Source: a virus
Direction: 5' to 3' (one strand)
DNA: 64,000 nucleotides
Virus record (IMG/VR): IMGVR_UViG_3300032677_000006
Both the position numbers and the translations under genes were made by a program. The notes under the pieces were generated by a model. That model searched no databases. It was not told the DNA's origin and saw nothing but the letters and a program-made list of their open reading frames with translations. This document shows positions 11,833 to 58,533 of the stretch, piece by piece. Numbering within the stretch: the stretch's first letter is position 1; each line of letters begins with the position of its first letter.

Positions 11833-12659
11833 AGCAGGTACCCCTTGCTTTCGTACACGGCCCGGTTATCCGTCACCCAGCGCGGCAGCGGCGCGTCCGG
11901 CATCCGGTCGAAGATGAAGCCACCTTTAGGGTCCACCTGCCTGCCCAGCCGCCGCATGTCCACCGGCACGTCGCCTTGGAGGGCGTACAGGATCGGCAGC
12001 GTGTGCCGCCCGAAGCAGTGCGAGTAATTTTTGAGTTTGTACTGAACCCGGCCAGGACCTTCCGGACCCAACAAGTAGGAAAAGTGCCAGCCCGCGCGCT
12101 CCAAACGCTTGGCCAGCGGATAGGGGTCGCTCTTGTAGCTGAAGTGTTCAAACGGACGCAGCCGATGCACCGGATACTGGTTGTACAGCGACCCGGGTAC
12201 TAGATAAGGAGCCTTCCAGACTTTGTTGACGCACCCGTAATTCAGGTAGAAGTGAAAGAACGCCAGCTCCAGGCCGACTGCGCCGTCCCGAGGCCGGTAG
12301 TTTAGAATCGTCTGCGCGCTGATGATTTCGTCAGCGTCACAGATGCTAAACACGTCGAATTCCTTTAGCCTTGGCAGCACTTCCTTCAAGTAATCGCGCT
12401 GGTAGTTTTGGCGCGCCCAGGAGGCGGCCTGGGCATCTTCCGGCAGGTTGGGGCAGGGCGGCACCTCTATGTATACAATTTTATCGCGCCACTGCTCGAA
12501 CTCGTCGGCGTGCTCCTGGTAGCTGAGCCGCTTGGGCCTGCCCGCGAAGGTGACCCGGCTCTCCAGCACGTAGAAGCGGTCAACCACGCGGTACATCTCG
12601 TGCAGCCGCAGCTTGAGCAGCTCCAGCTCATTAAGCAGGATGGATGCGTTGATCACCAT
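11829..12659 (-). CDS. GT17 family (MGAT3-like beta-1,4-GlcNAc transferase)
   Basis: 'NELELLKLRLHEM..VVDRF.VLES..TFAGRPK', 'W.RQNYQRD', 'DADEI', 'GWHFSY'; start at ATG 12659. Confidence 0.85.
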   Translation of the reverse strand: MVINASILLNELELLKLRLHEMYRVVDRFYVLESRVTFAGRPKRLSYQEHADEFEQWRDKIVYIEVPPCPNLPEDAQAASWARQNYQRDYLKEVLPRLKEFDVFSICDADEIISAQTILNYRPRDGAVGLELAFFHFYLNYGCVNKVWKAPYLVPGSLYNQYPVHRLRPFEHFSYKSDPYPLAKRLERAGWHFSYLLGPEGPGRVQYKLKNYSHCFGRHTLPILYALQGDVPVDMRRLGRQVDPKGGFIFDRMPDAPLPRWVTDNRAVYESKGYLL

Positions 12660-15379
12660 AGCGGCTCGTCGATCAAAGACAGATACTCGTTGGACCAGTA
12701 CGGGTACAGTCCACCGGCAAAAGCCAGTTCCAGGTTGCGCAGGCTGAAAAGTTTCACCAGCGGTCCTTCGGAGTCCTGGTGCAAGTGGCACGCCTGCGGG
12801 TACAGCCATTCACTCTCCACCTGGTTTATATCCACCAGCGTGGGCAGCATGATTTCCCTGGCGCTGGGGAAGTTAAGCACCACCACGCACTTAAGCCCCA
12901 GCGCGGAAGCCAGGTGCATTGGCCCGCTGACAATGCCTAAAAACCATTCACTGCCGGACATCAAGGCAATGGATTCATCCAGGCTGCGACCGGTGCGGTC
13001 CTCCACCCCGTTCAGGTTGTGGCAGGTCTGGCCTATCTCCACAAAGGACATGTCGGCGCGGTGGGCGTCCACAAACTCCTGGATCACCTTGAAAGTCGAC
13101 GGGTACACTTCGCGCGCCCGGCCATGCACGCGCCGCCGCTGCCACTGGGCGTGCGCCCCGGGTTCAAAATGCAGCACGCAGCGGCCCGGCACCTTGTCCT
13201 GGGGACAGACCACCGTGGCCCGGGGCAGCAAGTCGGCCCGATAGCCCCATGCCCGTTGCAGGCGCTGCATCAAATGGCCGTTGCCCAGGTCGAAGGTCTT
13301 TTGCAAAAAGTCGGAAGACACCGGCGGCCTGCCGTCGTACGGCTTGTACCAGGGGTTGTGCTTGATCAACGTCTCAAACTTGGCATCGGCGTGAAAGATA
13401 TGCGTATAGCCGCCCTGCTCCGTAGAGACCCGGGGCAGGGAGGACATGACCAACATGTCGCCGATGCCGCTCTGGTAATTGGACAGCGCGTAATTGGTCA
13501 AGTCAATGAGCGGCTCTTTCGGTGCCGCTTTCATCCGGCGATAGTAATTCCGGATGTGGTCCACTACTTCGCGGGATTTGCGCTTGTGGCTGGTCCGGCG
13601 CAAGCTGGACCTTGCAACGGTTTCCTGGCGGAACAGCCGGTACGCCAACAGGTCGGCGCTGGCGCAGTCCTCCGCCTCCATGAGCTGGCGAATGTCCACG
13701 TCCGCCGTTTCCAGCAGGCTGCGGTGCCGCTGCCACCAGCCGTAGGTGAAAGCGTAAAACTCCACCTCCGGGCTGGGCACAGAATTGCGCTCCAAATCCG
13801 CCGAGGTATGCGTTCCCGGCATGGCCACTTGTCGGCGCAGGCCATAGAAACAGTCTGCTTCGCACAGCTTGGCCCGCAGAATGCGCTCAACATCCGGCAC
13901 GAAATACGTGTCACCGGGCGTGTAGACAATAACATCAATCGGTTCTGCTGACGTCAGTTTGGCGATGTCCGCCAGTGTGTTGCTGCCTGACAGCTGCCAG
14001 GGCGGCCAGGTATTGGACGCCTGCTCGTTTACCACTTCCGGATGCACGTGCCAGAACAGGCGGAACATCACGCGATTAACGGCAGTGTCCAAGGCGTCCG
14101 TGTCCAAGGCGTCCGTGTAGCGAAAAGTCTTGGCCAGGTTACAGCAGGGCACGGTGGCGCTCCAGGAGCCTGCCAGGGTGTTCAAGTAGGCAATCACTGG
14201 AATCTTAACTGCCTGCGCCAGGTGGAGGAAGGCGGTGTCCACGGTTATCAACAGGTCAGCCGCGTCCATCAGGGTCAGGAAATCAGTCAGCGTGGACGCT
14301 TTGACGTCATCCAGCCAGACTACCGCCGATCCGTACTTGGTGGCGATCCATTCCCGCAGCCGGACGGCGTGCGGAAACGGGCTGGACTTGCCTTGCAGGG
14401 CCACCAGGATCGTGGGCGTGCGGTTGCGCAGGTGAAGCTTGGCCAGCTCCAGTTCGCCCGCCAGGTCACGGCCATCCAGCACCAGCGGCAGCTTTCCGCG
14501 CAAAGGCAGCAGGCCCAGCGCGGCCCAGGGTTCTTCACAGTAGCTCCGGCACCTGTAGTCCATCGTGAAATCACGGGTACAGGGCTGCATGACCACCACT
14601 TCGGTATACCGTGTCGACGCCCATTCCAGCGCCGGTTGCGTCAAGTCGAACTTACCGGGATAAATGACCGGATTCCAGTAGCTGACCCAGGCCGCCGCAT
14701 CCGCAAAGTCCTGGCTGATCACCACGTTGGGCTTTTCGCCGGTAGCGTCGAACAAATGCTTGAAGATCGGCAGCACGTTCAGCAAGTCACCGTACCGGCC
14801 TAAAACCAGGTAGCAGCGGATGCTGTACTTTATCTCTGGCGGGAAAGGCCCGACCTTGAACGGGTGAGTAATAAGTCCTATCCGGTAGCTTAAACGCTTC
14901 GTCTGAATCAGCGTAATCGAAGGCACAAACTGTTCCGCGAAGGTACGCTCATTTCCCTCAGCGTTGTAGCGGATCAGACCCAGCGCAGAGCGGAAAAAGG
15001 CGAAGCAGGCGGCATTGTCGTCCGGCTGCTCGACGCCGGAAGCGCTGCTGACCAGGTGGAGACTGTTGGTGACTGCCCGCATGTGAAAGTCGATGTAGTC
15101 GGGGTCGTACCAGTAGTTTGGCAGCCAGGGGAAGCACCACTCGGCCTGGGCCAGCTCCAGGGCGGCGTTCTTAAGCTCCTGGATGCTGCCGCCGGACTCC
15201 ACCACCTTTACCTCCGGCGGCAGGCTTATGGCGCGTCCGCTGCCGTTGATGACGATCAAGCTTTTGAGCGGCCAGGTTTGCCGGATAAAGCAGAAGGCCG
15301 CGTTCATTGCGTTTTCCTTCAGGTCATCCGGTCCGATGACCATGAGTCCGTTTACCGAGGGTTGTTCAGGCCACGCCAT
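12653..15379 (-). CDS. Multidomain glycosyltransferase: degenerate GT2 + two GT9 (heptosyltransferase-like) modules
   Basis: 'LGRYGDLL...TVDTAFLHLAQAVKIP' and 'GIGDMLV...VSGPMHLASALG'. Confidence 0.78.
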   Translation of the reverse strand: MAWPEQPSVNGLMVIGPDDLKENAMNAAFCFIRQTWPLKSLIVINGSGRAISLPPEVKVVESGGSIQELKNAALELAQAEWCFPWLPNYWYDPDYIDFHMRAVTNSLHLVSSASGVEQPDDNAACFAFFRSALGLIRYNAEGNERTFAEQFVPSITLIQTKRLSYRIGLITHPFKVGPFPPEIKYSIRCYLVLGRYGDLLNVLPIFKHLFDATGEKPNVVISQDFADAAAWVSYWNPVIYPGKFDLTQPALEWASTRYTEVVVMQPCTRDFTMDYRCRSYCEEPWAALGLLPLRGKLPLVLDGRDLAGELELAKLHLRNRTPTILVALQGKSSPFPHAVRLREWIATKYGSAVVWLDDVKASTLTDFLTLMDAADLLITVDTAFLHLAQAVKIPVIAYLNTLAGSWSATVPCCNLAKTFRYTDALDTDALDTAVNRVMFRLFWHVHPEVVNEQASNTWPPWQLSGSNTLADIAKLTSAEPIDVIVYTPGDTYFVPDVERILRAKLCEADCFYGLRRQVAMPGTHTSADLERNSVPSPEVEFYAFTYGWWQRHRSLLETADVDIRQLMEAEDCASADLLAYRLFRQETVARSSLRRTSHKRKSREVVDHIRNYYRRMKAAPKEPLIDLTNYALSNYQSGIGDMLVMSSLPRVSTEQGGYTHIFHADAKFETLIKHNPWYKPYDGRPPVSSDFLQKTFDLGNGHLMQRLQRAWGYRADLLPRATVVCPQDKVPGRCVLHFEPGAHAQWQRRRVHGRAREVYPSTFKVIQEFVDAHRADMSFVEIGQTCHNLNGVEDRTGRSLDESIALMSGSEWFLGIVSGPMHLASALGLKCVVVLNFPSAREIMLPTLVDINQVESEWLYPQACHLHQDSEGPLVKLFSLRNLELAFAGGLYPYWSNEYLSLIDEPLW
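14085..14114. repeat. 15-bp tandem duplication (TDALD x2) in the GT gene
   Basis: gtgtccaaggcgtcc occurs twice in tandem. Confidence 0.8.
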
Positions 15380-15995
15380 AAGGGTATTCTCGCATCATGC
15401 TTAAACGCTGATTCTGGGTTAAGGCTCCGAAGTGGTGCAGCGGCTTTAGCCGCTCTGGATCGTACCACGGCATGTCTGCTATCCAGTTCGAGTCCAAAAA
15501 GGAAATCCGGCGGGCCACCGCAGGAAACTCGTTGAGCAGCCCCTTAATGGTGTTCTGCTCCCACTTAGGCCCTAAAGCCGCCCCGTAGCGGTCGTCGTCC
15601 TTGACGTCTCCGCACCGGCTAAGCGTAGGTAAAAACCAGTCGGTCCAGGCACACTTCTTAACCGCCAGCACGCAGGCGCACAGGCCGTTCCAGTCGGAGG
15701 CTCCCAGCAGGTCAAACTGAAGTTTGTCGCCCAAGTCGTCCACCAGCGCAAACGGACGAAGCAGCAGGCAGTCGGCGTCAATCCACACCGCCCAGTCCCC
15801 ATCCTGTAAATCCGACAGCGTCGTTTGGAGGGCGGCTATTTTGTTCCAGGACGGATGCACCCCTGGGTCCAATAACTCCGTGTATACGTCCAAGCCAACA
15901 CCCATGGCCGCCGCGTGCGTCCGCAGCGACTTGGCACACTGATCGCCCACCTGAGCGTAGCCCGCGTCGTATAGCGTAAGCAGCTTCACGTTCAT
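15366..15995 (-). CDS. GT34-like (GMA12/MNN10) glycosyltransferase
   Basis: 'HPSWNKI', 'WIDADC', 'WEQNTI'. Confidence 0.78.
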   Translation of the reverse strand: MNVKLLTLYDAGYAQVGDQCAKSLRTHAAAMGVGLDVYTELLDPGVHPSWNKIAALQTTLSDLQDGDWAVWIDADCLLLRPFALVDDLGDKLQFDLLGASDWNGLCACVLAVKKCAWTDWFLPTLSRCGDVKDDDRYGAALGPKWEQNTIKGLLNEFPAVARRISFLDSNWIADMPWYDPERLKPLHHFGALTQNQRLSMMREYPYGVA

Positions 15996-16777
15996 AGCTC
16001 GGCAACTTCCGACCGAATAAGTCGGCTGCTGGCGCTTTCGTCCAGGTTGGTGTAGTCGCGGTGAATGCCTTCCCAGTAATCAAAGCGCATCTCCCGGCAC
16101 TTGGTGTAGACCGCCATGCCGCGCAGGGTATGGTCATCCTTGCCGTGGTCCATGAAAACAGCTTCACCAACCCGTTTACAGCCAAAGGACGCGAAAGTTT
16201 CGTCCAGCCCCCTCAGATTAAAGAAAGTGCAACTGGTCGCGTCCCACGGCGACGTCGTGACCGGGCAGTGGATCAGCGGCTCGTCATTTGGCCCGTAGAA
16301 TCCAGATTCCACGACAATGATGCCGCCGGTCTGGGTCGCGCCCACGACGGCAGATATGCCATTGATTGGATACCGCAGGTGGTACAGGACGCCCATGAAC
16401 AGCACGGTGCGGAACTGGTTGTCCCGATCCAAGCTATACACGGACTTTTCCCGGATCGTCAGCTTGGACCCGCGTAGTTCGCGCATCAGGCCAATGCCTT
16501 CGCTGATGTTGTTATCAATGCCGGTGACTGGCTCGATGCCGTTGTCCTCCAGCCAAAAACTGAACATGCCGTCGCGACAGCCTATGTCGAGGGCCGGACC
16601 TTTAAGCAGCTTGCGCGCGTGCAAATCGTTCAGCTGCTCCTTGATCCAGTTCCAGGATTTCTCCAGTCCGAGACTGTGGCCGTGGGTGACGATGCTGGTG
16701 CCCGGCACTTCCATGGTGTGGTACCACTTAACCTTGTTCACTCTGACCCGCAGGGCTTCTTCGTTTAGGGTGTCCAT
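15992..16777 (-). CDS. Class I SAM-dependent methyltransferase (CmoB/DUF1698-like)
   Basis: 'WYHT', 'ALDIGCRDGMFSF', 'VLFMGVLYHLRYP'. Confidence 0.85.
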   Translation of the reverse strand: MDTLNEEALRVRVNKVKWYHTMEVPGTSIVTHGHSLGLEKSWNWIKEQLNDLHARKLLKGPALDIGCRDGMFSFWLEDNGIEPVTGIDNNISEGIGLMRELRGSKLTIREKSVYSLDRDNQFRTVLFMGVLYHLRYPINGISAVVGATQTGGIIVVESGFYGPNDEPLIHCPVTTSPWDATSCTFFNLRGLDETFASFGCKRVGEAVFMDHGKDDHTLRGMAVYTKCREMRFDYWEGIHRDYTNLDESASSRLIRSEVAEL

Positions 16778-18870
16778 GTGTCTTTAATGTTGTGTATTCC
16801 GGCGACCGCTCCGGCTACGAGCCTTCGCTTTTGGTAGTCGCGCTGGATAAAGCACTCGCCGTTAAAGGACAGCGCCTGGGTGACGGGCGAGAAGCGCTCC
16901 AGGTACTCCAGGCCGTAGGTCCGCGCCAGCTCCAGGCCGACGCGCATGTCCCAGGGCTTGTCGGTGTAGATTCCGCTTTTCCAGGCGGCAACCACTTCCT
17001 TGGTCCGGTAAATGGCGAAGCATCCGTTGGGAAACAGCGTCCACTGCTCGCGCGGCAGCCACTCGTCGCGCAGGGAGTAAATGTGGGCACCGGTCACCCG
17101 GTTATACTCGCGCACAATCAAGCGGCATATCGTGCGCACCCCGGGACCGGCAAATTGAGTGTGAAAGGGCACCGGGGTGCCTGCCAGCAAAAAGTCCGGG
17201 TTGTGGGCCAGCGCCTCGCGCAGCAGGCGCTCGTCCCAGGCCCCGCCTTTGACCCGGCAGTCGGGTTCAATGGGCATGAAAAACTCGGCGTCCAACTGTT
17301 CCGCCACTTTGATCACCTCGTTGAAAATACCAATGCCGGTAACGTGGGTGTTGGCTCCGCACCTGATCGGCTCGGCCAGCAGGTGCTGCGGCTGATAATC
17401 CGGGGTCTCGCTGACGTAATGCACCGGGAACGTCGGGGGATTGGCGCTTAAATTGCGGAAAAACACGTCATTGTGCCCGACTTCCGGCGGCGGCAGATAG
17501 CAGATACTGACCAGGCGCGGTTTACCGTGGATCAGGAGCGGAACGGAGGGCAGATCGGGCCGGGCCACGGAAAGGAAGGCTTCGCGGATGCTATTCTCCC
17601 ACAGCGTAAGCTCGATCCAGGGACAATGAAAGACCACGTTCTCCACCCGGCCCGAGCATTCCCACTTGGGCCTTCCGAAGTGTATGGACGGCGTGTTGGT
17701 CGCCCGGTTCAGGTGCAAAATGGCCGTGTCGGCACAGACTAGCAGTTTCGCATTTTCCAGCAGCAGCAGAAAATCCGCAAAGTTGTCCAACCGTACCTCA
17801 GAAATGTCTACAACCGACCAGCCCCATTCCCGGCAGAGTTCGGCCAGCAACTTTTGCACCCAGGCAGCCTCAGCATCGGTCGGCGGCGAGGAATGGCTTT
17901 TTAAGCAGGTGACCACGTACGGCGAGTCGGGGTTGAACCGGTCGAACACCGCCGTCTCGGCGGTCGCGTTTCGACGGTCAAACACCAGCGGCAGCTTGCC
18001 CCACTGCTCCAGGTAGCCAAGCTTCTCCCACTGGGCTTTCAGAAAGTTAGCGCCGGTCTTGCGATTTTTAGACGTTCCAAAAAACATGCAGTTGGTCGCC
18101 TTAAGCCCGGTGCCCTCGACTTCCTTTACCGCCGATTCGGCGTCGTGAAGGCTGCCTTGAAACAACACTGGCTCCACGTAGCTTACCCGTTCCAGTATGG
18201 CGGCAAACTCCGGGCAGACCATCATTTTGGGCGCGATGCCGCTGCGCAGAAAGAGCGCCCGGCAAACCGGCAGCACGTTAATGATGTCACCGATGCGCCC
18301 CAAATTTACGATTACTGAGCCGTCCGGCTTGGGCGACGCGACCGTCAGCTTGGGCGCTTCCGCGTCTCGGACCTTGGTCTCCGACTTAACGTGGTGGGCC
18401 AGGACGCGGTCGGAATGCACCGCTACCGGGGTTCCCAACTGACCCAGAAACAGGTGCTCGTAGCCGTGGTCGTCATAACGAATCTTGCCCAGAGCTGCCT
18501 TGGCGTAGCCGCAGAAGCGCCGGTCCTGGCCATACAGCAGCACGTTTGCGCCGTTGGCTTTGCCCAGCAGGGTGTCGAGGTATTCAGGCGCATACCAGGC
18601 GTCCGGCAGCCAGTTAAAAATCCACTCGCCAGTGGCCAGCGCCAGCGCCTGGTTGCGCAATTCGCCGTAGGGCAGAGGGAGACCGACCACTTCCTGAATA
18701 TCGGCGTTCGGCGGAGCCAGGGCGACACCGGTGCTGTTAACCACGATCAACTCTTTTACCGGCCAGGTCTGGCGAATAAAGCAGTAAATCGAGTTTAGCG
18801 CCGCGTCCCGTAAATCACAGGGGCGCACCACCATTACCGCCGAGACAAAACGATGTTCAGGCCATGCCAT
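16765..18870 (-). CDS. Multidomain glycosyltransferase (degenerate GT2 + GT9 + C-terminal GT-A-like), paralogue of 12653-15379
   Basis: Shared MAWPE start, CFIRQTWP, LGRIGDIINVLP, GKLPLVFD, DTAILHL. Confidence 0.75.
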   Translation of the reverse strand: MAWPEHRFVSAVMVVRPCDLRDAALNSIYCFIRQTWPVKELIVVNSTGVALAPPNADIQEVVGLPLPYGELRNQALALATGEWIFNWLPDAWYAPEYLDTLLGKANGANVLLYGQDRRFCGYAKAALGKIRYDDHGYEHLFLGQLGTPVAVHSDRVLAHHVKSETKVRDAEAPKLTVASPKPDGSVIVNLGRIGDIINVLPVCRALFLRSGIAPKMMVCPEFAAILERVSYVEPVLFQGSLHDAESAVKEVEGTGLKATNCMFFGTSKNRKTGANFLKAQWEKLGYLEQWGKLPLVFDRRNATAETAVFDRFNPDSPYVVTCLKSHSSPPTDAEAAWVQKLLAELCREWGWSVVDISEVRLDNFADFLLLLENAKLLVCADTAILHLNRATNTPSIHFGRPKWECSGRVENVVFHCPWIELTLWENSIREAFLSVARPDLPSVPLLIHGKPRLVSICYLPPPEVGHNDVFFRNLSANPPTFPVHYVSETPDYQPQHLLAEPIRCGANTHVTGIGIFNEVIKVAEQLDAEFFMPIEPDCRVKGGAWDERLLREALAHNPDFLLAGTPVPFHTQFAGPGVRTICRLIVREYNRVTGAHIYSLRDEWLPREQWTLFPNGCFAIYRTKEVVAAWKSGIYTDKPWDMRVGLELARTYGLEYLERFSPVTQALSFNGECFIQRDYQKRRLVAGAVAGIHNIKDTWTP

Positions 18871-18887
18871 GCAGCTTTAGAACTGAA

Positions 18888-20027
18888 TCAGCTGCCGGTT
18901 CGGAGTAGTTGCAGTCCCGACAGGTACCCATAGACCGCAAAGCTCATTTTTCCCGTGCTGTTGACCGCCGCCGAAACGGCCACGTAGTTCTGACCGGCTA
19001 CAAAAGACGTAGCTGCCGTGTTGTTGACCGTGTGCAAGACAGGAGCACCGCCATTAACTCCAATGTAGACGCTGCTGGTGCCCGAGGCGGCTGCCGAATA
19101 GACGTACAGGGTGTAGCTGCCGGGCGGGATGTTGCGCAGGTTGAACGTGTTGGGCACGGACGGACCGCCTGCGTACGTGTTCAACATGGGATCAAAAGTG
19201 CTCTGGGTGCCTGCCGCCGATGTCAGCGGCGCAACCCGTTCCAAATAAACGACGCTCAGGCTGCGGTCGTAATTCAGCAGCGGAATCAGCGGAGCACTGG
19301 AAAACACCCAACCATACCCGTATCCGTAGCCGCAGGTATGGTCCACCGTTGCCGTATAACTGGCGGGAGTGTAGACATTCCAGTAGTCGCTGGCGGTTTT
19401 GCCGACCTGAGCCGGACCCTGCTTGAGACCCGTGCCGTTAAAATCGACATTGACCAGCAGCTGCGTCGCGTCCGGCGTAAAATAGCGCTTCCCGCCGACC
19501 AGGGTGGCTGCCGTGCCACCACTCAGATCGCGCGGCAGGACGTCAGGAGCGAACCGGATCATGTCGTACTGGCCCAGGACCTCGGCCCCATCTTGCACCA
19601 AAAAGGTTGGATTTAGCCGCAGAGGGTCCAACGGGACGGTGCCGACGAGCACTCCCATCCAGATTTGGCTGGTTTTCGGCGGTCCAACCAGCGCCCCGCG
19701 CGTAACGGGCTGCCCCGTGACCAGCCCGGTGGAAGCCAGGCCACTAAGCGTCACCAGCACGCCCAGGCCGCAGTCAATGGTGACGTTGGTGGCGTACGTG
19801 GCCAGCAGCACCGGGTCTTCCGTGTAAAACTCCGGGAGCGACGTCCATATCCGGCTGACCGTCCCCGTGGCCGGAGCGATGGTGCTCTCTCCCGCCGCCA
19901 GCTGCACGGTGATGCCCAGGTTGACGCTGCCCTCGGCGGTGTACGCGTACAGCAGGGTGGCTGACCGGGAAAACGGCGGTCGAAACTGGGTGACCAGGTT
20001 GATGACCGACTGCGAAAGGTTGCTCAT
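18888..20027 (-). CDS. Putative virion protein: degenerate M23-like N-domain + carbohydrate-binding-like C-domain
   Basis: 'APATGTV', 'VTGQPVTRGALVG', 'PLDPL' M23 scaffold without the Zn-binding His residues. Confidence 0.5.
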   Translation of the reverse strand: MSNLSQSVINLVTQFRPPFSRSATLLYAYTAEGSVNLGITVQLAAGESTIAPATGTVSRIWTSLPEFYTEDPVLLATYATNVTIDCGLGVLVTLSGLASTGLVTGQPVTRGALVGPPKTSQIWMGVLVGTVPLDPLRLNPTFLVQDGAEVLGQYDMIRFAPDVLPRDLSGGTAATLVGGKRYFTPDATQLLVNVDFNGTGLKQGPAQVGKTASDYWNVYTPASYTATVDHTCGYGYGYGWVFSSAPLIPLLNYDRSLSVVYLERVAPLTSAAGTQSTFDPMLNTYAGGPSVPNTFNLRNIPPGSYTLYVYSAAASGTSSVYIGVNGGAPVLHTVNNTAATSFVAGQNYVAVSAAVNSTGKMSFAVYGYLSGLQLLRTGS

Positions 20028-43644: not shown

Positions 43645-44244
43645 CTAGCGCTCCAGCACCAGCACGACCGGGTACAGTGTCTTGTCCAGGGACCAGATGG
43701 CCTCGTCCGGCGACTGCGGGCTTACCGGAAGCCATTCGCCGGTGCGGCTGTCCACCAGGGAAATCTTCAGCCCGTGATCCGTCGCCGTGCGCACGAACGA
43801 CTTCCAGAGGCGCTTGCCGCCTTCCAGGTGCTCAAAATCGGAGACCACCCCGCCCGCATACTGGACGTAGCTGAAATACCAGCGCGTCGCCACGCCGCCC
43901 CGGGCGAAGCTCTCCCGGATGCTCAGCCGGTGCGCCTGCATGTAGCCCTTGATGTTGGACGGGCGCAGCTGAACCGTCATGACCGGAACGATGCCGGTCC
44001 TTGGCGGGTTCTCGGTGTCAGGCACGGAAAACACGTAGCCGAAGTTGCCCGCCGGGGAAAGGGCGTAGGCGTAGTCGGCATCCTGGGTCATCAGCTGGCA
44101 GGCCCAGTAGTTGTCCATCGACAGGGGCCGGAAGCCGGAATCTCGCTGGTAGGCGAAGGGACCTGGGTAATACTGGGGCGACTCCCGGAGCTGGCCCAGG
44201 GTGGGCAGGTCCAGGAGCTTCGTCACTAGCTGATCGGCACGCAT
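43645..44244 (-). CDS. GNAT-like protein
   Basis: 'FARGGVATRWY...VVSD...GGKRLWKSF' resembles GNAT motifs A/B. Confidence 0.5.
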   Translation of the reverse strand: MRADQLVTKLLDLPTLGQLRESPQYYPGPFAYQRDSGFRPLSMDNYWACQLMTQDADYAYALSPAGNFGYVFSVPDTENPPRTGIVPVMTVQLRPSNIKGYMQAHRLSIRESFARGGVATRWYFSYVQYAGGVVSDFEHLEGGKRLWKSFVRTATDHGLKISLVDSRTGEWLPVSPQSPDEAIWSLDKTLYPVVLVLER

Positions 44245-44295: not shown

Positions 44296-44802
44296 TCAAA
44301 AACTGGGCAGGATGTCGAACTGCCACGTCTCGCCCGGCACCGGCTCCAGGGTCCTGATGCTGGCGTGGTCGCTGTCCTGGTACCTTTGGCTGCCGAACAC
44401 ATTTTCCCGGTTGGAGTAAAACTCAACGCGCACGACCCCTGCTCCCATCCACTGGCGGCAGCCGCACTGGAACGGCACCTGAATCTTGTGCCGTTCCGCC
44501 ACGCTGGCATCGTGGCAGCGGTAGAGCTGGTCGTCGGGCATGGCTTGCAGATCGCGGAGCGTGCGCAACGGCCCGGCCTCCAGGAGCGCATCAACCAGGG
44601 CCACCGGCTTGCCGCGTTTGAGCGCTTCTTCCAGCTTGGCGTTCGTAAATGGCCGGTGCAGCAGGAGGTCCAGCTCGTTGTTGAGCGCCTTCAGCTCGGC
44701 GGATACGTGCGCAGTGGGCTGCGCCAGGCCGTCCAGGCGGTCATACTCAGCGTCCAACTGCGCGATACGCGCTTTAACCACGGCAAGTCGTCTCTGTCTC
44801 AC
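44296..44802 (-). CDS. Hypothetical protein
   Basis: GTG 5 nt after GTAGTTA. Confidence 0.55.
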   Translation of the reverse strand: MRQRRLAVVKARIAQLDAEYDRLDGLAQPTAHVSAELKALNNELDLLLHRPFTNAKLEEALKRGKPVALVDALLEAGPLRTLRDLQAMPDDQLYRCHDASVAERHKIQVPFQCGCRQWMGAGVVRVEFYSNRENVFGSQRYQDSDHASIRTLEPVPGETWQFDILPSF

Positions 44803-44837
44803 GCCCCTAACTACGGACAAATTCAGTTCTAGCGGGC

Positions 44838-45080
44838 ATGATCACGAATCGACTCGTTTCCATTGACATCCCGGGCGCGCCCGACGTCACGACCAAAGAC
44901 GCGGAGTGCTGCGACAAAATGGTGGAGGGCGTCCACACCCTCAACCTGGCGTGCGAACTGGCCGCCGCCAACGGCACGCACATCACCATGTGGCCGATGC
45001 ACTACTGCCCCTGGTGCGGCAAATCGTTTACCGAATCGGCGAAGGAATTCCTGGCCAAGCAGCCGGTCAAAGGTACGTGA
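44838..45080 (+). CDS. Small Cys-rich (Zn-binding) protein
   Basis: 'ECCDKM...YCPWCGK'; GTTCTAG upstream. Confidence 0.65.
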   Translation: MITNRLVSIDIPGAPDVTTKDAECCDKMVEGVHTLNLACELAAANGTHITMWPMHYCPWCGKSFTESAKEFLAKQPVKGT

Positions 45081-45996
45081 ACTTTGCAGGCTGGCGGCTG
45101 CCGATCACGGTGCCGTGGAAATGGGACCTGATGTTGTCGGCCACGAACGCGTCAGTCGCGTAGTCCAGGTGCGTGATGGCCACGACATCCGGACGCGTCA
45201 GCCGCAGGCTGAGCTTGAAGTCGCTCTCCGACCACTCAAATACCCGGCGCACGCGCTTGGTCGTGGAGGCGATCTCCGGCTCCAGCTTCAGCTCAACCCA
45301 GGTCAGCTCCTTGCCGCCACAGGGGCCGCTGGGGCCGCCCGTGCGGATTGGCAGCGTCCGGTACACCGAGCAGATGGTCCAGTTGAAGCAGGACAAGCCG
45401 TTGCGCCCGATAATGGACAGCGGCAGCGTTGACCGGCTGGTCACGTACGGGTACACGCCAAAGTTGGTGTCCAGCAGCGCTCCCTGGCTGCCCTCGACGA
45501 TCCAGTCGAAACTGGACAGCTCCTCCACCAGGTCCAGCCACTCCGCCGACTTCACGACGGTTACGCCTGGGATTGGGTAGTAGCCCGCCACGGCATTGGG
45601 CTGCCTTAGCGTATACTTTTTGTACCGGGCGTACCCGCTGCCGGTACAGGTGCTGGAGATGCTCCGCCCCAAGCCCAGCTCTTGCTCCGCGACGCGGTCG
45701 TCAGGCAGGGTGATGGCCGCGTTCTCGTGGACGTAGACGCGAGCATTCTTTGGCAGCTGCGCCAGCTCGCGGGCCAGCTGGTCCAGGTCGATCACCGCGT
45801 CCGGCCCGATCAGCGTGGCGTTGGCCCGCATGGCGCAGGAGGGCAGGCAGTGGGTACACCAGGCTGAGTTGGTGTGGCCGGAGTTGGGGCCGGACTCGGC
45901 GAAGGCGACCAGGGCTTGGGTCTGCCGGGCGAAGTAATCGGCCACGCAGCCCTTGCCCTCGGAGCCGTAGAGACCGCCGCAAATCAATAGCTTCAT
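45067..45996 (-). CDS. purZ: PurZ/PurZ0-like adenylosuccinate-synthetase homologue (candidate dGMP-succinylating enzyme)
   Basis: P-loop GGLYGSEGKG (Ser in place of the PurA catalytic Asp), GPNSGHT, EGSQG, YPYVTSR, RTLPIRTGGPSGP, TTKRVRRV, THLD. Confidence 0.75.
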   Translation of the reverse strand: MKLLICGGLYGSEGKGCVADYFARQTQALVAFAESGPNSGHTNSAWCTHCLPSCAMRANATLIGPDAVIDLDQLARELAQLPKNARVYVHENAAITLPDDRVAEQELGLGRSISSTCTGSGYARYKKYTLRQPNAVAGYYPIPGVTVVKSAEWLDLVEELSSFDWIVEGSQGALLDTNFGVYPYVTSRSTLPLSIIGRNGLSCFNWTICSVYRTLPIRTGGPSGPCGGKELTWVELKLEPEIASTTKRVRRVFEWSESDFKLSLRLTRPDVVAITHLDYATDAFVADNIRSHFHGTVIGSRQPAKFTYL

Positions 45997-46003
45997 AGCT
46001 CTG

Positions 46004-48037
46004 CTAGTTGACCGGGCAAGCGGTTTTGACTTTCGCTCTTCCACCTTTAATCGTGCCGAACGGCCCTTGCGAGGCTTGGTGCAAATGCCTTATGCCAGCT
46101 ACGATAGACAGTAGCGCGCTGGGCTTTGTCAATTCATCCGAGTTTTTCATTTTGTTGGCCTTAAGGTAGGCGTAAATGTGCGTCATAGCCAAGCTCACGT
46201 GCCCGATTACCTGGCTCTCAAAAGCTCGTCGGTAGCTAGTCATTTCAGCGCCGTCATCCACACCGTCGGCTCTTAGCTTGAGTTCGCACATGTCCCACGC
46301 ATCTTTGACTAGAGGATGTGTCATGTCTACAATGCCTCTAGGCTCTTTTTGATCTGTATTCCATTCTACCGGAAATCCTCCTTCTACTGTACCCTTATTA
46401 ACGGTTATCAAGCCTCGACTATTTTGAAAATCCCTGCCGCGACCGCCCAAATGTCCCGGCAAGCGGTAACCGCCGCGATTACCACTGTCGGTGTCGCCGT
46501 CCGATTCATCCGATCTTTCGTAAGCAGGCTGTTTCTTTTCCGCGCGTCGAGTTTCTACGACAGTATGCGCCATGAACGGAAAATACTGCTTAAGGTGCTC
46601 CACGATGCTCGCATCCGTTTCAGGTCGATCTACGCTTAAACCTTCAAAGTAGGCGTCCACCGCTTTTGATATGAAGTCAGGCCGGTTTACCCTGTAGGCT
46701 GCCGCCCACTCAAGCTCCGGCAGCGGCGCGCCACCTTTAGTCTTACTTTGGTATAGTAGAGTGCGCCTGGACTGATCCGCAAAAACACAGATGTCACCGT
46801 CGTCCTTCGGCTCTAGGATTAAAGCCAAACGTCGCCGTACATCCATTAAGTTTATCCAGTCAAAAAGCGCAGTTTTTCCCTCTGACAGCATGCGCACGTT
46901 AAAAGTTTCGACTAAGTCTAAGTCGGGATGGCATTTCCAGATGCTAGCGATGAGCGGAAGTGAAGGATAATTACCGGCGGCATAGTGATTGTCACCACCA
47001 ACGGTGCCGCTGCTTTTTTCCAGCTCAGGCAGCAGCAAGGTGTCTACACTAACAGGAACTTCTGCGCCAGCTTTAAGCAGCGTCTGACCGCGCTTAGCCT
47101 CCTTGCCCTCTTTAGTAGCGGCGACAACGTAAGACTCCAGACACTTTTTCATGCCGATGACTGTCCTGCTGCTTATGCCTCCAGTGCCAGGTGCCGTTGG
47201 CCAGCTGCTCGGTTGATTCCAGTTTTTTCTTGCCTCTTCTGTTCCCACGGAAGCAACCGTAATTTTGAAGTTGTCGGGAATAGAATAAAAACGGGTGTTC
47301 AGGTAGCGGCAAAGACCGTACTTGGTGTCGTGTTCGTTCCTCTTAAAGTCACCAAGTATGGTGTGTTCTTTTCCACGCTGCCCGAGTAGCACGATAACCG
47401 TGCCGTGCCCAGCCTCTTTCACAAACTTAGGGACTACTTTAAGCCAGTTAATACCGTCTAATTCAGGCACGTATCCGCAATCGTTTAACAGTGTCAATGG
47501 CATCACTGTTGTAGCATCCTCGTTTCTTCCAAAACCGGAGACCCAGTCGCCGATAAAATCGTCGCTTTCTTGAGTTTCTCGCCCATCGAAATAATCAGAC
47601 AACAGCTCCCGCGCGCCGTAGTCCAAGGTACCGTCGTCTTTCTCTTCCCTCTGAAGCCACATCATATTGGTTTCTATCCGCCCGTTCAGCGTAACCACGG
47701 AAATGACCACAACACCGTAACCGTTCCACGGCAGTACGCTGCTCTTAAAGCCTACACCGTAGTTTCCTGTAATGGCTCCGATAGTGCGGCCTGAACCGCC
47801 AAATTTATTCAAAAAAGCTGGCATTTGCTGCGCACTCATGCCTGATCCGTTGTCGGCCACAAGCCGTCGGTACACTTGTTGGCTGCGTACTGCTTGCCAC
47901 TCCACGTCGAACCGCACATCAGTCGCACCAGCTTGGAGGGCGTTTACGGCGGCTTCTCTTGACCATTGATAAGCCTCTGAAGATTCGTAGGCTCGGTTAA
48001 TGTGAGCGTAGACGCCCACCATTTGCATATATTTCAT
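46004..48037 (-). CDS. GHKL (Hsp90/MORC-like) ATPase-domain protein
   Basis: 'REAAVNALQA', 'DNGSGMS', 'GNYGVGFKSS'; AAGGA SD before ATG 48037; lower GC. Confidence 0.75.
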   Translation of the reverse strand: MKYMQMVGVYAHINRAYESSEAYQWSREAAVNALQAGATDVRFDVEWQAVRSQQVYRRLVADNGSGMSAQQMPAFLNKFGGSGRTIGAITGNYGVGFKSSVLPWNGYGVVVISVVTLNGRIETNMMWLQREEKDDGTLDYGARELLSDYFDGRETQESDDFIGDWVSGFGRNEDATTVMPLTLLNDCGYVPELDGINWLKVVPKFVKEAGHGTVIVLLGQRGKEHTILGDFKRNEHDTKYGLCRYLNTRFYSIPDNFKITVASVGTEEARKNWNQPSSWPTAPGTGGISSRTVIGMKKCLESYVVAATKEGKEAKRGQTLLKAGAEVPVSVDTLLLPELEKSSGTVGGDNHYAAGNYPSLPLIASIWKCHPDLDLVETFNVRMLSEGKTALFDWINLMDVRRRLALILEPKDDGDICVFADQSRRTLLYQSKTKGGAPLPELEWAAAYRVNRPDFISKAVDAYFEGLSVDRPETDASIVEHLKQYFPFMAHTVVETRRAEKKQPAYERSDESDGDTDSGNRGGYRLPGHLGGRGRDFQNSRGLITVNKGTVEGGFPVEWNTDQKEPRGIVDMTHPLVKDAWDMCELKLRADGVDDGAEMTSYRRAFESQVIGHVSLAMTHIYAYLKANKMKNSDELTKPSALLSIVAGIRHLHQASQGPFGTIKGGRAKVKTACPVN

Positions 48038-48091
48038 GTTTTCCTTTCCCAGTCCCACCGGTTAATTCCAGCAAGTCCGGTTACACGCCGA

Positions 48092-48955
48092 CTATAGTTC
48101 AGCGCTGCCGTTAAGAACAAGAGAAAAACCTTTGTGTGCGCAAATTTCGCTCGCTTTTTTCCACTCAGCCACTCCCACTACTTCGCGGTGGGCGCGATGG
48201 GCTGTGTCCATCGAGTATCTCGTATCTATGAGCTTTTTGTCTACGCGCCAGTACAAGTCGCAGGCAACCCTATCTTTATTATCGTAGGTCAGTACCCACT
48301 TTCTCAGCGTGCGCAAGGCTTTTGCAAAATTCCTGTGCTCGCTTTCAGTCATGCTAACGCCGTAAAGTTTATTTTTGCCGTCCATAAGGTACGGCGGATC
48401 AATAAAGCAGGGACAACTGAATCGACGTACAAATTCAACAGCGTCCAGTTCCGTCACAACAGTGCGTCCGGACAGAAGTTCATGGTAGGCTACTAAAAGG
48501 GCGCTTAAAGCGCCTACGTTATAGCGACAACCGATTGGCCACTTACTTTTCTGCTCCAGGCCGCCTATCGGACGTGAGTCGTGTACGATGCCGTTCCACG
48601 AGGTTCGGTTCATGAATATCGCCTTAAAAGCCCGATTCAAGTCTGTTTTGGGTTCACTGCTGCGGGTGGACCGCCACAGGCTTAATGTTGGCACCACATC
48701 AATCAGTTTAATTAGCTGATTGACACCGGCAGAGGGTCCGCAGATTACGCGCCATAACCCGGCTATGAGCGGGTCTTTGTCGTTCAGCCTTAACTTGATT
48801 TTTGGAAAATGGCGCGCCACGTGCAACGCCACCGAACCACCACCGACGAAAGGTTCGCCGTACTCAGTTTCATTTTTAAGCATTCCGACCAGGTACGGCT
48901 GTAGATCGCCGAGCATTCGACTTTTTCCGCCAGGGTACCGTAATAGGCATTTCAT
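48092..48955 (-). CDS. DNA N6-adenine methyltransferase (Dam/D12 class)
   Basis: 'LRYPGGKSR', 'EPFVGGGSV', 'DPPY', 'WVLTYD'. Confidence 0.9.
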   Translation of the reverse strand: MKCLLRYPGGKSRMLGDLQPYLVGMLKNETEYGEPFVGGGSVALHVARHFPKIKLRLNDKDPLIAGLWRVICGPSAGVNQLIKLIDVVPTLSLWRSTRSSEPKTDLNRAFKAIFMNRTSWNGIVHDSRPIGGLEQKSKWPIGCRYNVGALSALLVAYHELLSGRTVVTELDAVEFVRRFSCPCFIDPPYLMDGKNKLYGVSMTESEHRNFAKALRTLRKWVLTYDNKDRVACDLYWRVDKKLIDTRYSMDTAHRAHREVVGVAEWKKASEICAHKGFSLVLNGSAEL

Positions 48956-49019
48956 GTCGCCAGTATAGAACACACACAGACGAGCCGTGGCCAGCTGAAA
49001 AATGACTAAACGTCAGCAT

Positions 49020-57603: not shown

Positions 57604-58533
57604 CTACACCAGGTCAGTGAGAATCCGATAACCGACCTGCTCAAGTTGACGGGTGGAGCTGCCTGCGTTCATGTAGCCGCCCGACCACGGGGGATAGATC
57701 AGCTTGAACGGACGGTAGTAGTGACGGTAGCTATACTCACGCGTGGCCCGGTTCATGGCCTGGGAGGCAACCAGGTCGGCCTGCTTGCGCGGAACCCCGG
57801 CAAAGCTGGTGGGGACATCCTGGTGCTGGAGCAGACCATGTTCGATGTCCAGGCAGTTCATGTCCTGCTTTTCCATCTGGATGAAACCAGCCAGGCGCGC
57901 CCGGATGTTGAAGTCGCAGTGCTCCTCGCCGAATTTCCCAAACTCAGTGTCGAAGTAACCGATCTTTTCAATCACCGCCCGGGTCATGGACATCATGATT
58001 CCGGTCATGCGCGGCAGCATCTTGACCTTGTACCCGCGCCAGGGGTACGTGACCCACTTGTAGCTCTCCGGGTTGCCGGAGATGGCCGGGCTGGCCTTGT
58101 CGAAGTCGCAGAAACAGAACAGGCCCACGCCCAGGTCATCGTGCGCCTGGGCGTACGCGCGGACGAAATCACCGGTGACCAGCAGGTCGTCGTTACACAG
58201 GCACAGGTGGTCGCAGCCCGAGTCCATGAACATTTTGATCAGCCGGTTGCTGTTGCCTGCCACCCCCAGGTTGCGTTCGCCCAGGAGCACCCGGGCGTTG
58301 GGATAGACCGCCGCCGGGTCGCCGCTGTCTACGTATTCCGTGGCCATGAGATCGCGCCGGTAGGCGTACTCTGTCGTGCGGCCCGCTTTCAGGAAGCTCG
58401 ACGTGCTGTCCCGCTGGCCGCAGTCTTCAGCGATGGCGCACTGGTACTGGGAGCAGTGCTCTTCAATTCCGGCCATCATGGCCTGGAGCGCCGCCAGCCG
58501 CCGGAAGGTGAGGATGCCGATGAAAGATTTCAT
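57604..58533 (-). CDS. GT2-family glycosyltransferase
   Basis: 'GILTFRR', 'AEDCG', 'NLGVAGNSN', 'LCNDD', 'IGYFDTEF..FGEEHCDF..R'. Confidence 0.85.
   Translation of the reverse strand: MKSFIGILTFRRLAALQAMMAGIEEHCSQYQCAIAEDCGQRDSTSSFLKAGRTTEYAYRRDLMATEYVDSGDPAAVYPNARVLLGERNLGVAGNSNRLIKMFMDSGCDHLCLCNDDLLVTGDFVRAYAQAHDDLGVGLFCFCDFDKASPAISGNPESYKWVTYPWRGYKVKMLPRMTGIMMSMTRAVIEKIGYFDTEFGKFGEEHCDFNIRARLAGFIQMEKQDMNCLDIEHGLLQHQDVPTSFAGVPRKQADLVASQAMNRATREYSYRHYYRPFKLIYPPWSGGYMNAGSSTRQLEQVGYRILTDLV

What the first reader, a model, noticed from the sequence alone, without database searches (positions are those of the whole stretch)
45067..45996. PurZ0-signature enzyme in a large myovirus: possible 2-aminoadenine (Z) DNA
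Seen: a compact 309-aa PurA-fold protein with P-loop GLYGSEGKG (Ser where PurA has the catalytic Asp of GDEGKG), RTLPIRTGGPSGP in place of PurA's KAYxTRVG.GP, and THLD at the NTP-specificity motif. Known: the Asp-to-Ser change and RxxPIR loop typify PurZ, which converts dGMP towards dZTP; a retained TxxD points to the GTP-using PurZ0 variant. Characterised Z-phages are mostly sipho/podoviruses and usually encode a dATPase (DatZ) and MazZ nearby, and neither is recognisable in this window. Inference: a Z pathway in a T4-like/jumbo lineage, partial substitution, or a different modified purine.
Basis: partly seen in the sequence, partly recalled or inferred. Interest (0 to 1): 0.85.

Follow-up and report, generated by a model that had tools for sequence, protein, structure and literature searches.

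The report
Orphan PurZ-type enzyme, jumbo phage
A large uncultured contractile-tailed phage carries an intact enzyme from a previously unnamed sister branch of PurZ, the enzyme that starts synthesis of the DNA base 2-aminoadenine (Z); no known adenine-removing helper gene was found, so its DNA may hold some Z, but only chemistry can show this.

Summary

It belongs to the Ser-type PurZ superfamily. Its best PDB, PHROG and NCBIfam matches are all PurZ, and the AF2 model has TM 0.87 to S-2L and phiVC8 PurZ. It is not a member of either named subgroup:
- It scores 154.6 bits against a cutoff of 300 on the NCBIfam PurZ model.
- It sits in its own clade (39-53% identical relatives, metagenomes only), which is the well-supported sister of the classical ATP-using PurZ clade. 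Actinophage PurZ0 branches deeper.
- It keeps the PurA/PurZ0 Asp of the NTP-base pocket, so a GTP-type donor is inferred.

The host phage is a jumbo myovirus. Two near-complete IMG/VR relatives (238 and 230 kb; capsid protein 81% and 67% identical) also carry clade members. Both lack DatZ, MazZ/DUF550, DutZ, NDT/DUF4406, PurB and guanylate kinase, and positive controls for DatZ, MazZ/DUF550 and DutZ worked.

Small (~25-30 kb contig) relatives carry purZ next to a dUTPase-like gene, with a DUF4406 gene a few kb downstream.

The most likely activity is dGMP + Asp + GTP giving the dZ precursor. Z content in the virion is unproven and may be partial.

The scan has noted PurZ in other large phages before, on other DNA.

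The parts
45070..45996 (-). purZ-like CDS, 309 aa (stop codon 45067-45069). It is a short adenylosuccinate-synthetase fold with S12 at the PurA Asp13 site. Catalytic H41, K15, Q171, T116, R131, T186, R248, R250 and R251 are kept. The NTP-base motif is T275-H276-L277-D278-Y279.
   Evidence: GC3 is 0.86, like the rest of the phage.
46004..48058 (-). GHKL/MORC-like ATPase gene, 684 aa, directly upstream on the same strand. It lies in a lower-GC island (GC3 0.54). This is context only and not shown to act with purZ.
   Evidence: Pfam HATPase_c_3 at 9.7e-5, below the cutoff. Composition. The gene junction is shown.
48092..48973 (-). D12-class (Dam-type) N6-adenine DNA methyltransferase, the first gene of the same lower-GC island. 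This is context only.
   Evidence: Pfam PF02086 at 8.5e-10; PHROG 56 at 8.4e-35.
44296..44820 (-). Downstream co-oriented ORF, 174 aa, with no recognisable family. It was checked as a possible helper and nothing was found.
43645..44244 (-). Downstream co-oriented ORF, 199 aa, with a GNAT-acetyltransferase-like predicted fold. It is not a nucleotide hydrolase.

Best explanation
P0001 is an active enzyme of the Ser-type PurZ radiation of short adenylosuccinate synthetases.

Inferred mechanism, by phylogenetic bracketing between the two assayed groups (PurZ and PurZ0):
1. An NTP phosphorylates O6 of dGMP. The donor is probably GTP or dGTP, because the guanine-recognising Asp (D278) is kept.
2. 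L-aspartate displaces the phosphate to give N6-succino-2-amino-2'-deoxyadenylate.
3. Host PurB and host kinases convert this to dZTP.
4. The phage's own polymerase inserts Z opposite T. The relatives encode a family A polymerase.

No enzyme that removes dATP or supplies dGMP was found in the window or in near-complete relatives. The substitution is therefore likely partial, or it depends on a helper of a kind not yet known.

Shown here: the fold, the conserved catalytic set, Ser at the Asp13 site, the clade's position in the tree, and the absence of known helpers. Inferred: the substrate, the phosphate donor, and any Z in virion DNA.
For: Sequence and structure matches:
- Best PDB sequence matches are phiVC8 and S-2L PurZ (E 2e-23), against 4e-14 for archaeal PurA and 1e-11 for E. 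coli PurA.
- The best NCBIfam model is PurZ NF038379 at 154.6 bits, ahead of archaeal-type PurA at 110.8.
- The AF2 model has pLDDT 90.2. Foldseek gives TM 0.87 to 7ODX and 6FM1, and 0.83 to PurZ0 7VF6.

Phylogeny:
- In IQ-TREE the query clade has 100/100 support. Query clade plus classical PurZ has 99/92. PurZ0 lies outside this pair and canonical PurA is the root.

Residues:
- Ser at the Asp13 column in 52 of 53 clade members that cover it.
- H41, K16, N38, T129, R143, Q224, T239, T301, R303 and R305 equivalents are kept across 56 clade members, which argues for purifying selection on catalysis and on aspartate binding.
- D278 (the D333 equivalent) is kept in 56 of 56.

Literature:
[quoted passage not shown] It is found in 100% of phage PurZ-group proteins (PMC12884076 section 24; bioRxiv 10.1101/2025.10.22.683976 section 8).

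Context in relatives:
- Small-contig clade members carry purZ followed by a dUTPase-like gene, with a DUF4406 (NDT-like) gene a few kb further downstream. This resembles the PurZ0 helper set.
- The gene's GC3 matches the phage's, and clade members occur in both jumbo relatives.
Against: - No DatZ, YfbR-like, HD, MazG, DUF550, DUF5664, dUTPase, NDT or DUF4406 gene in the 96%- and 100%-complete relatives G001 and G002. None was found in the window by tblastn. The searches detect these helpers in known Z phages.
- The score is far below the curated PurZ cutoff: 154.6 against 300.
- phiVC8 T262, which contacts the 2-amino group, is Ala in 45 of 56 clade members. The Val next to C2' (E. coli V273) is Thr in 53 of 56. 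PurA's D229 is retained. The nucleotide pocket is therefore not identical to assayed enzymes.
- The closest relative's copy has Leu in place of the Ser.
- A Dam-type adenine methylase sits two genes upstream.
- Ser-type homologues are common in bacterial chromosomes with no Z helper within about 6 kb. The Ser signature alone therefore does not prove a Z-DNA role.
Confidence: 0.55

Rival explanations
1. The enzyme manipulates the nucleotide pool and does not build the genome. It converts (d)GMP into the succinyl adduct or into Z nucleotides during infection, for example to drain the host guanine pool, to poison host or competitor replication, or to counter a nucleotide-based defence. Little or no Z ends up in packaged DNA.
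For: - No dATP-clearing or dGMP-supplying helper in the window or in complete relatives.
- Incomplete Z clusters give lower A-to-Z substitution in E. coli than the full cluster (PMC8342488 section 11).
- Ser-type homologues sit in bacterial chromosomes beside a canonical purA and without Z helpers nearby. Earlier scan notes read such cassettes as defence systems (unchecked leads).
- purZ has moved or been replaced within the lineage: it lies at different loci and in different subclades in the window, G001 and G002. This behaviour is typical of accessory genes.
Against: [quoted passage not shown]
- The nearest assayed relatives on both sides of the clade serve Z-genome synthesis.
Confidence: 0.2
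2. The clade uses a different nucleotide substrate from dGMP, for example GMP, a modified dGMP, dIMP or XMP. It would then make another 6-amino purine, not the Z precursor.
For: The clade has specific changes at positions lining the base and sugar. The PurZ/PurZ0 Thr (phiVC8 T262) is Ala. E. coli V273 is Thr. PurA-like D229 and R303 are retained, whereas PurZ has Ser/Gly and often Lys/Leu at those positions. R303 is the residue that balances the 2'-OH of IMP in PurA (PMC8342488 section 8). The protein scores well below the PurZ cutoff.
Against: - Ser at the Asp13 site is the change tied to accepting a 2-amino purine (bioRxiv 10.1101/2025.10.22.683976 section 8).
- The loop after PIR(V/T) carries the PurZ/PurZ0-type insertion.
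- Small-contig relatives pair the gene with deoxynucleotide-type helpers, a dUTPase-like gene and a DUF4406 gene.
- No other purine-modification genes were seen near it.
Confidence: 0.15
3. It is an ordinary adenylosuccinate synthetase (IMP + Asp + GTP) carried as an auxiliary gene to boost adenine nucleotide supply.
For: It hits Pfam PF00709. It retains D278 (GTP type), R248, and the LLD motif seen in PurA.
Against: - The essential Asp13 is Ser here. Asp13 is about 99% conserved in true PurA (PMC12884076 section 24).
- Canonical PurA models score only 44-80 bits against cutoffs of 395-700.
- The trees place it inside the Ser-type group, far from the canonical PurA of E. coli, Nostoc, Sorangium and Pirellulaceae.
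Confidence: 0.04
4. It is a decaying or inactive remnant.
For: The closest relative's copy has Leu at the key Ser. The helpers are missing.
Against: - The frame is intact and the model is confident (pLDDT 90).
- All catalytic and aspartate-binding residues are conserved across 56 clade members at 39-53% identity.
- Codon GC3 fits the genome.
Confidence: 0.04

Closest known systems
PurZ (succino-amino-deoxyadenylate synthase, also called DgsS) of Vibrio phage phiVC8, cyanophage S-2L and Salmonella phage PMBT28 (PDB 6FM1, 6TNH, 7ODX; NCBIfam NF038379)
   Same: - The same short PurA fold (TM 0.86-0.87).
- Ser at the Asp13 site, an aromatic residue at phiVC8 F12, the P233 proline and Y298, and the catalytic His, Lys and Gln set.
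- The query clade is the sister group of this clade (99/92).
   Different: - Only about 26-33% identical and below the curated HMM cutoff.
- The adenine-selecting N297/Q308 is Asp here, and F295 is His. T262 is Ala, V236 (E. coli V273) is Thr and S192 is Asp.
- The genomes lack the DatZ and MazZ/DUF550 genes that accompany PurZ (against controls).
- The host virus is a jumbo myovirus, not a 38-48 kb sipho- or podovirus.
PurZ0 (GTP-using variant; Gordonia phage Archimedes, PDB 7VF6; actinophages such as Microbacterium phage Jera)
   Same: - A GSE(G/A)KG P-loop.
- The Asp of the T/S-x-x-D NTP motif is retained.
- The insertion after the PIR(V/T) strand is of similar length.
- Small-contig members of the query clade have a dUTPase-like and an NDT-like (DUF4406) neighbour, like the DutZ/DmtZ pair.
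   Different: - It is not in the PurZ0 clade, which branches deeper. The structural match is weaker (TM 0.83, 22% identity).
- The residue after the Asp is Tyr, as in PurZ, not Gln.
- The jumbo relatives have no dUTPase or NDT gene (control).
Archaeal short PurA (Pyrococcus horikoshii, PDB 5K7X and 2D7U)
   Same: A compact fold with the same deletions (TM 0.82-0.85), and a GTP-type Asp.
   Different: Archaeal PurA keeps the catalytic Asp13 and uses IMP. The sequence match is weaker (E 4e-14; NF003295 at 110.8 bits against a cutoff of 368).

Membership tests
PurZ superfamily (Ser-type short adenylosuccinate synthetases) | Short PurA fold with the archaeal-type deletions | tested here: met
   AF2 pLDDT 90.2. 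The top Foldseek hits are 7ODX, 6TNH, 6FM1, 7VF6 and 5K7X, with TM 0.83-0.87.
PurZ superfamily (Ser-type short adenylosuccinate synthetases) | PurA catalytic Asp13 replaced by Ser | tested here: met
   S12 aligns with E. coli D13, phiVC8 S14 and S-2L S23. Ser is present in 52 of 53 clade members that cover the column.
PurZ superfamily (Ser-type short adenylosuccinate synthetases) | Catalytic and aspartate-binding residues retained (H41, K16, Q224, T129, R143, T239, T301, R305) | tested here: met
   All are conserved in the query and in at least 53 of the 56 clade members.
Classical ATP-using PurZ (NCBIfam NF038379) | Score above the curated HMM cutoff | tested here: not met
   154.6 bits against a cutoff of 300.
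Classical ATP-using PurZ (NCBIfam NF038379) | Adenine-selecting NTP pocket N-F-x-N/Q-Y (phiVC8 F295, N297, Y298) | tested here: not met
   The query has T-H-L-D-Y. Asp is present in 56 of 56 clade members and only the Tyr is shared.
Classical ATP-using PurZ (NCBIfam NF038379) | Placement inside the clade of assayed PurZ enzymes | tested here: not met
   It is the sister clade, not nested inside. PurZ has 99/96 support on its own, and the query clade plus PurZ has 99/92.
Classical ATP-using PurZ (NCBIfam NF038379) | Z-cluster partners DatZ and MazZ/DUF550 in the genome | tested here: not met
   None in G001 or G002 and none in the window. The same searches find them in PMBT28, S-2L and phiVC8. 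The remainder of the window's own genome could not be searched.
PurZ0 (GTP-using, actinophage type) | Retained Asp of the PurA TKxD motif (guanine recognition) | tested here: met
   D278 in the query. 7VF6 has SMADQ and Jera has TMLDQ.
PurZ0 (GTP-using, actinophage type) | Placement inside the PurZ0 clade | tested here: not met
   The PurZ0 group (90/97) lies outside the query-clade-plus-PurZ pair.
PurZ0 (GTP-using, actinophage type) | DutZ and DmtZ helpers in the genome | tested here: not met
   No dUTPase, NDT or DUF4406 gene in G001 or G002. DutZ is found in Jera by the same search. Small-contig clade members do have a dUTPase-like and a DUF4406 gene.
PurZ / PurZ0 | Activity: dGMP + L-Asp + NTP gives N6-succino-2-amino-2'-deoxyadenylate; Z present in virion DNA | not testable with these tools
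   This needs an enzyme assay and nucleoside LC-MS.
Canonical PurA (EC 6.3.4.4) | Catalytic Asp13 and a full-length (~430 aa) architecture | tested here: not met
   The query has Ser at Asp13 and is 309 aa. The PurA equivalog models score 44-80 bits against cutoffs of 395-700.

The most novel reading that the evidence does not exclude
A lineage of jumbo contractile-tailed phages puts 2-aminoadenine into its DNA using only a stand-alone, GTP-type PurZ. This would mean either a naturally mixed A/Z genome, or a way of excluding adenine that is not yet known, such as a selective family A polymerase or a helper enzyme of a new family.
Probability: 0.3. Interest if true: 0.8.

Novelty: new variant of a known kind. 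Interest (0 to 1): 0.58.

Why it matters
Natural Z-DNA is documented in small sipho- and podoviruses whose PurZ always travels with enzymes that destroy dATP and supply dGMP.

A third, well-separated PurZ branch is described here. It occurs in 230-240 kb myoviruses with no known helper, and in ~25-30 kb contigs that carry a protein-primed polymerase and a different helper set.

This widens the range of phages that may rewrite their purines. It also gives a clean test case for two questions: whether helper enzymes are needed for Z incorporation in nature, and whether mixed A/Z genomes exist.

The enzyme combines an ancestral guanine-type NTP pocket with a PurZ-like acceptor site. That makes it useful for tracing how PurA became PurZ, and it is a candidate tool for making Z nucleotides.

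Tried and rejected
Source genome and samples:
- No genome is held for the window.
The rest of the 144,876-bp source contig and its samples could not be examined.
- The window is not in IMG/VR and has no near match among cultured phages.

Helpers beside purZ in the window:
- The 174-aa ORF has no family by Pfam, PHROG or the Atlas.
- The 199-aa ORF is GNAT-like.

Small-contig neighbours tested against the window and G002:
- HMMs built from the small-contig neighbours (the 127-aa, dUTPase-like, 177-aa, DUF4406 and 159-aa genes) found nothing in the window, in G002, or in the 21-kb G001 stretch around its purZ.
- The 127-aa neighbour looked MazG-like by eye. hhalign against S-2L MazZ and the PMBT28 pyrophosphohydrolase gave nothing, Pfam gave nothing, and its AF2 model was poor (pLDDT 59). 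I did not run a fold search on it and I make no claim about it.

Restriction-site avoidance as a proxy for Z content:
- The window lacks sites that dZ at least partly protects: BamHI, ClaI, PstI and PvuI (the latter reading PMC12944874).
- The true Z phage phiVC8 also purges GATC (4 observed, 152 expected). The test therefore does not discriminate, and I give it no weight.

Polymerase:
- The family A polymerase of the relatives shows only a weak match to the Jera polymerase (E 1e-5) and none to phiVC8 DpoZ. No DpoZ-type polymerase is claimed.

Full report
**1. The observation**

The minus-strand ORF 45067..46044 read from the ATG at 45996 gives the 309-aa protein P0001. Its homologues start at the same position. 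The ATG lies 7 nt after the stop of the upstream gene.

The protein matches Pfam Adenylsucc_synt (E 5.4e-26) and PHROG 1211, annotated '2-aminooxy adenylosuccinate synthetase' (E 1.5e-44). Its third-position GC (0.86) is typical of this phage. The two genes just upstream have GC3 of 0.54-0.55.

**2. The host genome**

The window encodes:
- a portal, SbcD, primase and tail sheath;
- SbcC;
- a major head protein and prohead protease;
- a T4-type baseplate protein and a spike OB domain;
- a flap endonuclease.

It is therefore a myovirus. No genome is held for the window. P0001 is recorded on contigs of up to 144,876 bp.

Two IMG/VR genomes are clear relatives:
- G001 is 238,436 bp and 96% complete. 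Its capsid protein is 81% identical to the window's.
- G002 is 230,253 bp, has terminal repeats and is rated 100% complete. Its capsid protein is 67% identical, and about 35 of its ORFs have blastp matches in the window, many of them in conserved neighbouring blocks.

Both relatives carry a member of the same purZ-like clade and a family A polymerase, and neither has a family B polymerase. The nearest cultured capsids are only about 28-30% identical: Listeria phage LIS04 and Bacillus phage SP-15.

**3. What the protein is**

By sequence:
- The best solved relatives are phiVC8 and S-2L PurZ (E 2e-23). Archaeal PurA scores 4e-14, PurZ0 7VF6 scores 6e-14 and E. coli PurA scores 1e-11.
- The best NCBIfam model is PurZ (NF038379), but at 154.6 bits against a cutoff of 300.
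- Cultured-phage PurZ proteins are only about 30% identical.

By structure:
- An AlphaFold model built on 27 clade members is confident (pLDDT 90.2).
- It superposes best on S-2L and phiVC8 PurZ (TM 0.87), then on P. horikoshii PurA (0.85) and PurZ0 (0.83).

In the large protein collections:
- The protein has its own clade, with about 20 representative clusters at 39-53% identity. There is then a drop to the general PurZ-like pool at about 35%.

**4. Phylogeny**

I aligned clade members, metagenomic representatives, homologues from bacterial and archaeal genomes, phiVC8, S-2L and PMBT28 PurZ, the actinophage (Jera) PurZ0-type protein, E. coli PurA, and the canonical PurA of Nostoc, Sorangium and a Pirellulaceae strain.

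- Jera's protein matches the PurZ0 crystal structure 7VF6 at E 3e-82. PMC12884076 identifies 7VF6 as PurZ0 of Gordonia phage Archimedes.
- FastTree (273 rows), IQ-TREE quick (141 rows) and IQ-TREE with bootstraps (55 rows) agree.
- The query clade is monophyletic (100/100).
- Its sister is the clade that holds all assayed ATP-using PurZ enzymes (joint support 99/92).
- The PurZ0 group (90/97) branches deeper.
- Canonical PurA is the outgroup.

The protein is therefore bracketed by two groups whose members have been shown to use dGMP, and it belongs to neither.

**5. Active site (numbering checked against residues named in the papers)**

Kept:
- The P-loop Lys and Gly residues, N38, G40, H41 and T42.
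- T129, R143, Q224, L228, T239, T301, R303, R305 and R306.

As in PurZ and PurZ0:
- Ser at Asp13 (52 of 53 clade members that cover the column).
- An aromatic residue at phiVC8 F12.
- The PIR loop with an insertion.

As in PurA and PurZ0, but unlike PurZ:
- Glu after the Ser.
- The Asp of the T-x-x-D motif (56 of 56 clade members).
- In S-2L and phiVC8 the residue at the Asp position (Q308 / N297) selects adenine and would clash with a 2-amino purine (PMC8342488 section 7). An Asp here points to a guanine nucleotide as phosphate donor. This is an inference.

Specific to the clade:
- phiVC8 T262 is Ala in 45 of 56. [quoted passage not shown]
- The Val that approaches C2' (E. coli V273) is Thr in 53 of 56.
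- PurA's D229 is retained in 56 of 56.
- These differences leave some room for a shifted substrate preference.

**6. Helpers**

Known Z phages pair PurZ with DatZ plus MazZ or DUF550. PurZ0 phages pair it with DutZ, DmtZ and DUF5664 (PMC12884076 sections 24-25; PMC8342488).

In G001 and G002 I found no HD, YfbR-like, MazG, DUF550, DUF5664, dUTPase, NDT or DUF4406 gene. I also found no PurB and no guanylate kinase. The only hit was one NUDIX domain in G001, about 21 kb from its purZ. G002 has none.

The same searches do detect the helpers where they are known to exist:
- DatZ in PMBT28, S-2L and phiVC8.
- MazZ/DUF550 in S-2L and PMBT28.
- DutZ in Jera.

tblastn with helper proteins found nothing in the window or in G002. 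The ORFs beside purZ in the window give nothing relevant.

**7. Relatives with helpers**

A second set of clade members lies on contigs of about 22-31 kb. Several fetched loci of this group share a conserved block after purZ:
- a 127-aa all-helical protein of unknown family;
- a dUTPase-like protein (Pfam 1.5e-5);
- a 177-aa protein;
- a protein-primed family B polymerase;
- in three loci, a DUF4406 protein, which I take from general knowledge (not tested here) to belong to the nucleoside deoxyribosyltransferase-like superfamily.

This resembles the PurZ0 helper logic and supports a deoxynucleotide role for the clade as a whole.

Within the clade, most large-contig proteins, G002's among them, form one tight subclade (SH-aLRT 100). 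The window's protein and G001's protein sit apart from it, among proteins from the small contigs. The gene lies at different places in the three jumbo genomes. Capsid proteins are 81% identical between the window and G001, but their PurZ proteins are only 45% identical. The gene has therefore been acquired or replaced more than once in this lineage.

**8. Cautions**

- Nostoc, Sorangium and a Pirellulaceae strain carry one in addition to a canonical purA.
- None of 60 genome loci of at least 10 kb has a DatZ, MazZ, DutZ or DUF4406 homologue nearby.
- Earlier notes of this scan read such cassettes as defence systems. They also report PurZ in other large phages. These are unchecked leads. They show that this theme has been seen before on other DNA.
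- G001's copy has Leu where the Ser should be.
- A Dam-type methylase and a GHKL ATPase, in a lower-GC island, read straight into purZ.

**9. Verdict**

This is a genuine PurZ-superfamily enzyme of a new sister branch, with an ancestral GTP-type donor pocket, in a jumbo myovirus lineage that lacks every known helper.
- The most likely activity is synthesis of the dZ precursor from dGMP (confidence about 0.55).
- Whether the virion DNA holds Z, and how much, is open.
- Rival readings are a pool-manipulating role without genome substitution, and a shifted substrate.
- Literature searches of the held library found no paper describing PurZ in a jumbo phage or myovirus.

Noticed in passing
window 1-64000; L083 and L200 (G001); G002 (L086-L097): Extreme restriction-site purging. 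Seventeen six-base palindromes expected 7-60 times each are absent from the window, including GCCGGC, GGCGCC, CGGCCG, CCGCGG, GGGCCC, CGATCG, CTGCAG, GAGCTC, GGATCC and CTCGAG. A 25-kb sample of G001 lacks most of the same sites and also GAATTC, GTCGAC and nearly all GTAC. G002 has 0 GTAC against 308 expected.
   Followed up: partly
window 46004-48973, minus strand: A lower-GC island (GC about 0.51-0.53, GC3 0.54) holds a D12/Dam-type adenine methyltransferase and a 684-aa GHKL/MORC-like ATPase. It is inserted directly upstream of purZ on the same strand. It may be an acquired defence or anti-defence pair.
   Followed up: partly
L083:9986-11014 (G001): The closest relative's PurZ-clade protein reads GGQYGLEGKG, with Leu where every other clade member has Ser at the PurA Asp13 site. 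Its other catalytic residues are intact.
   Followed up: no
L004:2956-11079; also L006, L009, L010 and L005: Contigs of about 20-30 kb carry purZ followed by a 127-aa helical protein, a dUTPase-like protein, a 177-aa protein, glycosyltransferases, a protein-primed family B polymerase and a DUF4406 protein. This is a candidate Z-type module in a phage group with a protein-primed polymerase.
   Followed up: partly
L099-L178 (genome contigs); L182-L196: Ser-type PurZ-like genes are widespread in bacterial and archaeal chromosomes, for example Sorangium, Nostoc, Bradyrhizobium, Burkholderia and Pirellulaceae. Three checked genomes carry one in addition to a canonical purA. No known Z helper lies within about 6 kb.
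   Followed up: partly
L084:983-6180 and 18439-19503 (G002): Near its purZ, the 230-kb relative encodes a class II ribonucleotide reductase, a tubulin/TubZ-like protein and a radical SAM/SPASM enzyme.
   Followed up: no
window 43645-44244, minus strand: The 199-aa ORF two genes downstream of purZ has a GNAT-acetyltransferase-like predicted fold (Atlas TM 0.61-0.68) behind an N-terminal extension.
   Followed up: no
L085 (G003, 119,931 bp, 67% complete): An unrelated large phage contig with a family B polymerase, a dUTPase and two NUDIX genes carries a PurZ-like gene from a different branch (32% identical). No DatZ or MazZ was found in it.
   Followed up: no
window 12653-18870, minus strand: Two very large multi-domain glycosyltransferase proteins (908 and 701 aa, with GT9 and GT2 hits) lie among virion genes. 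Another glycosyltransferase lies at 57604-58533.
   Followed up: no
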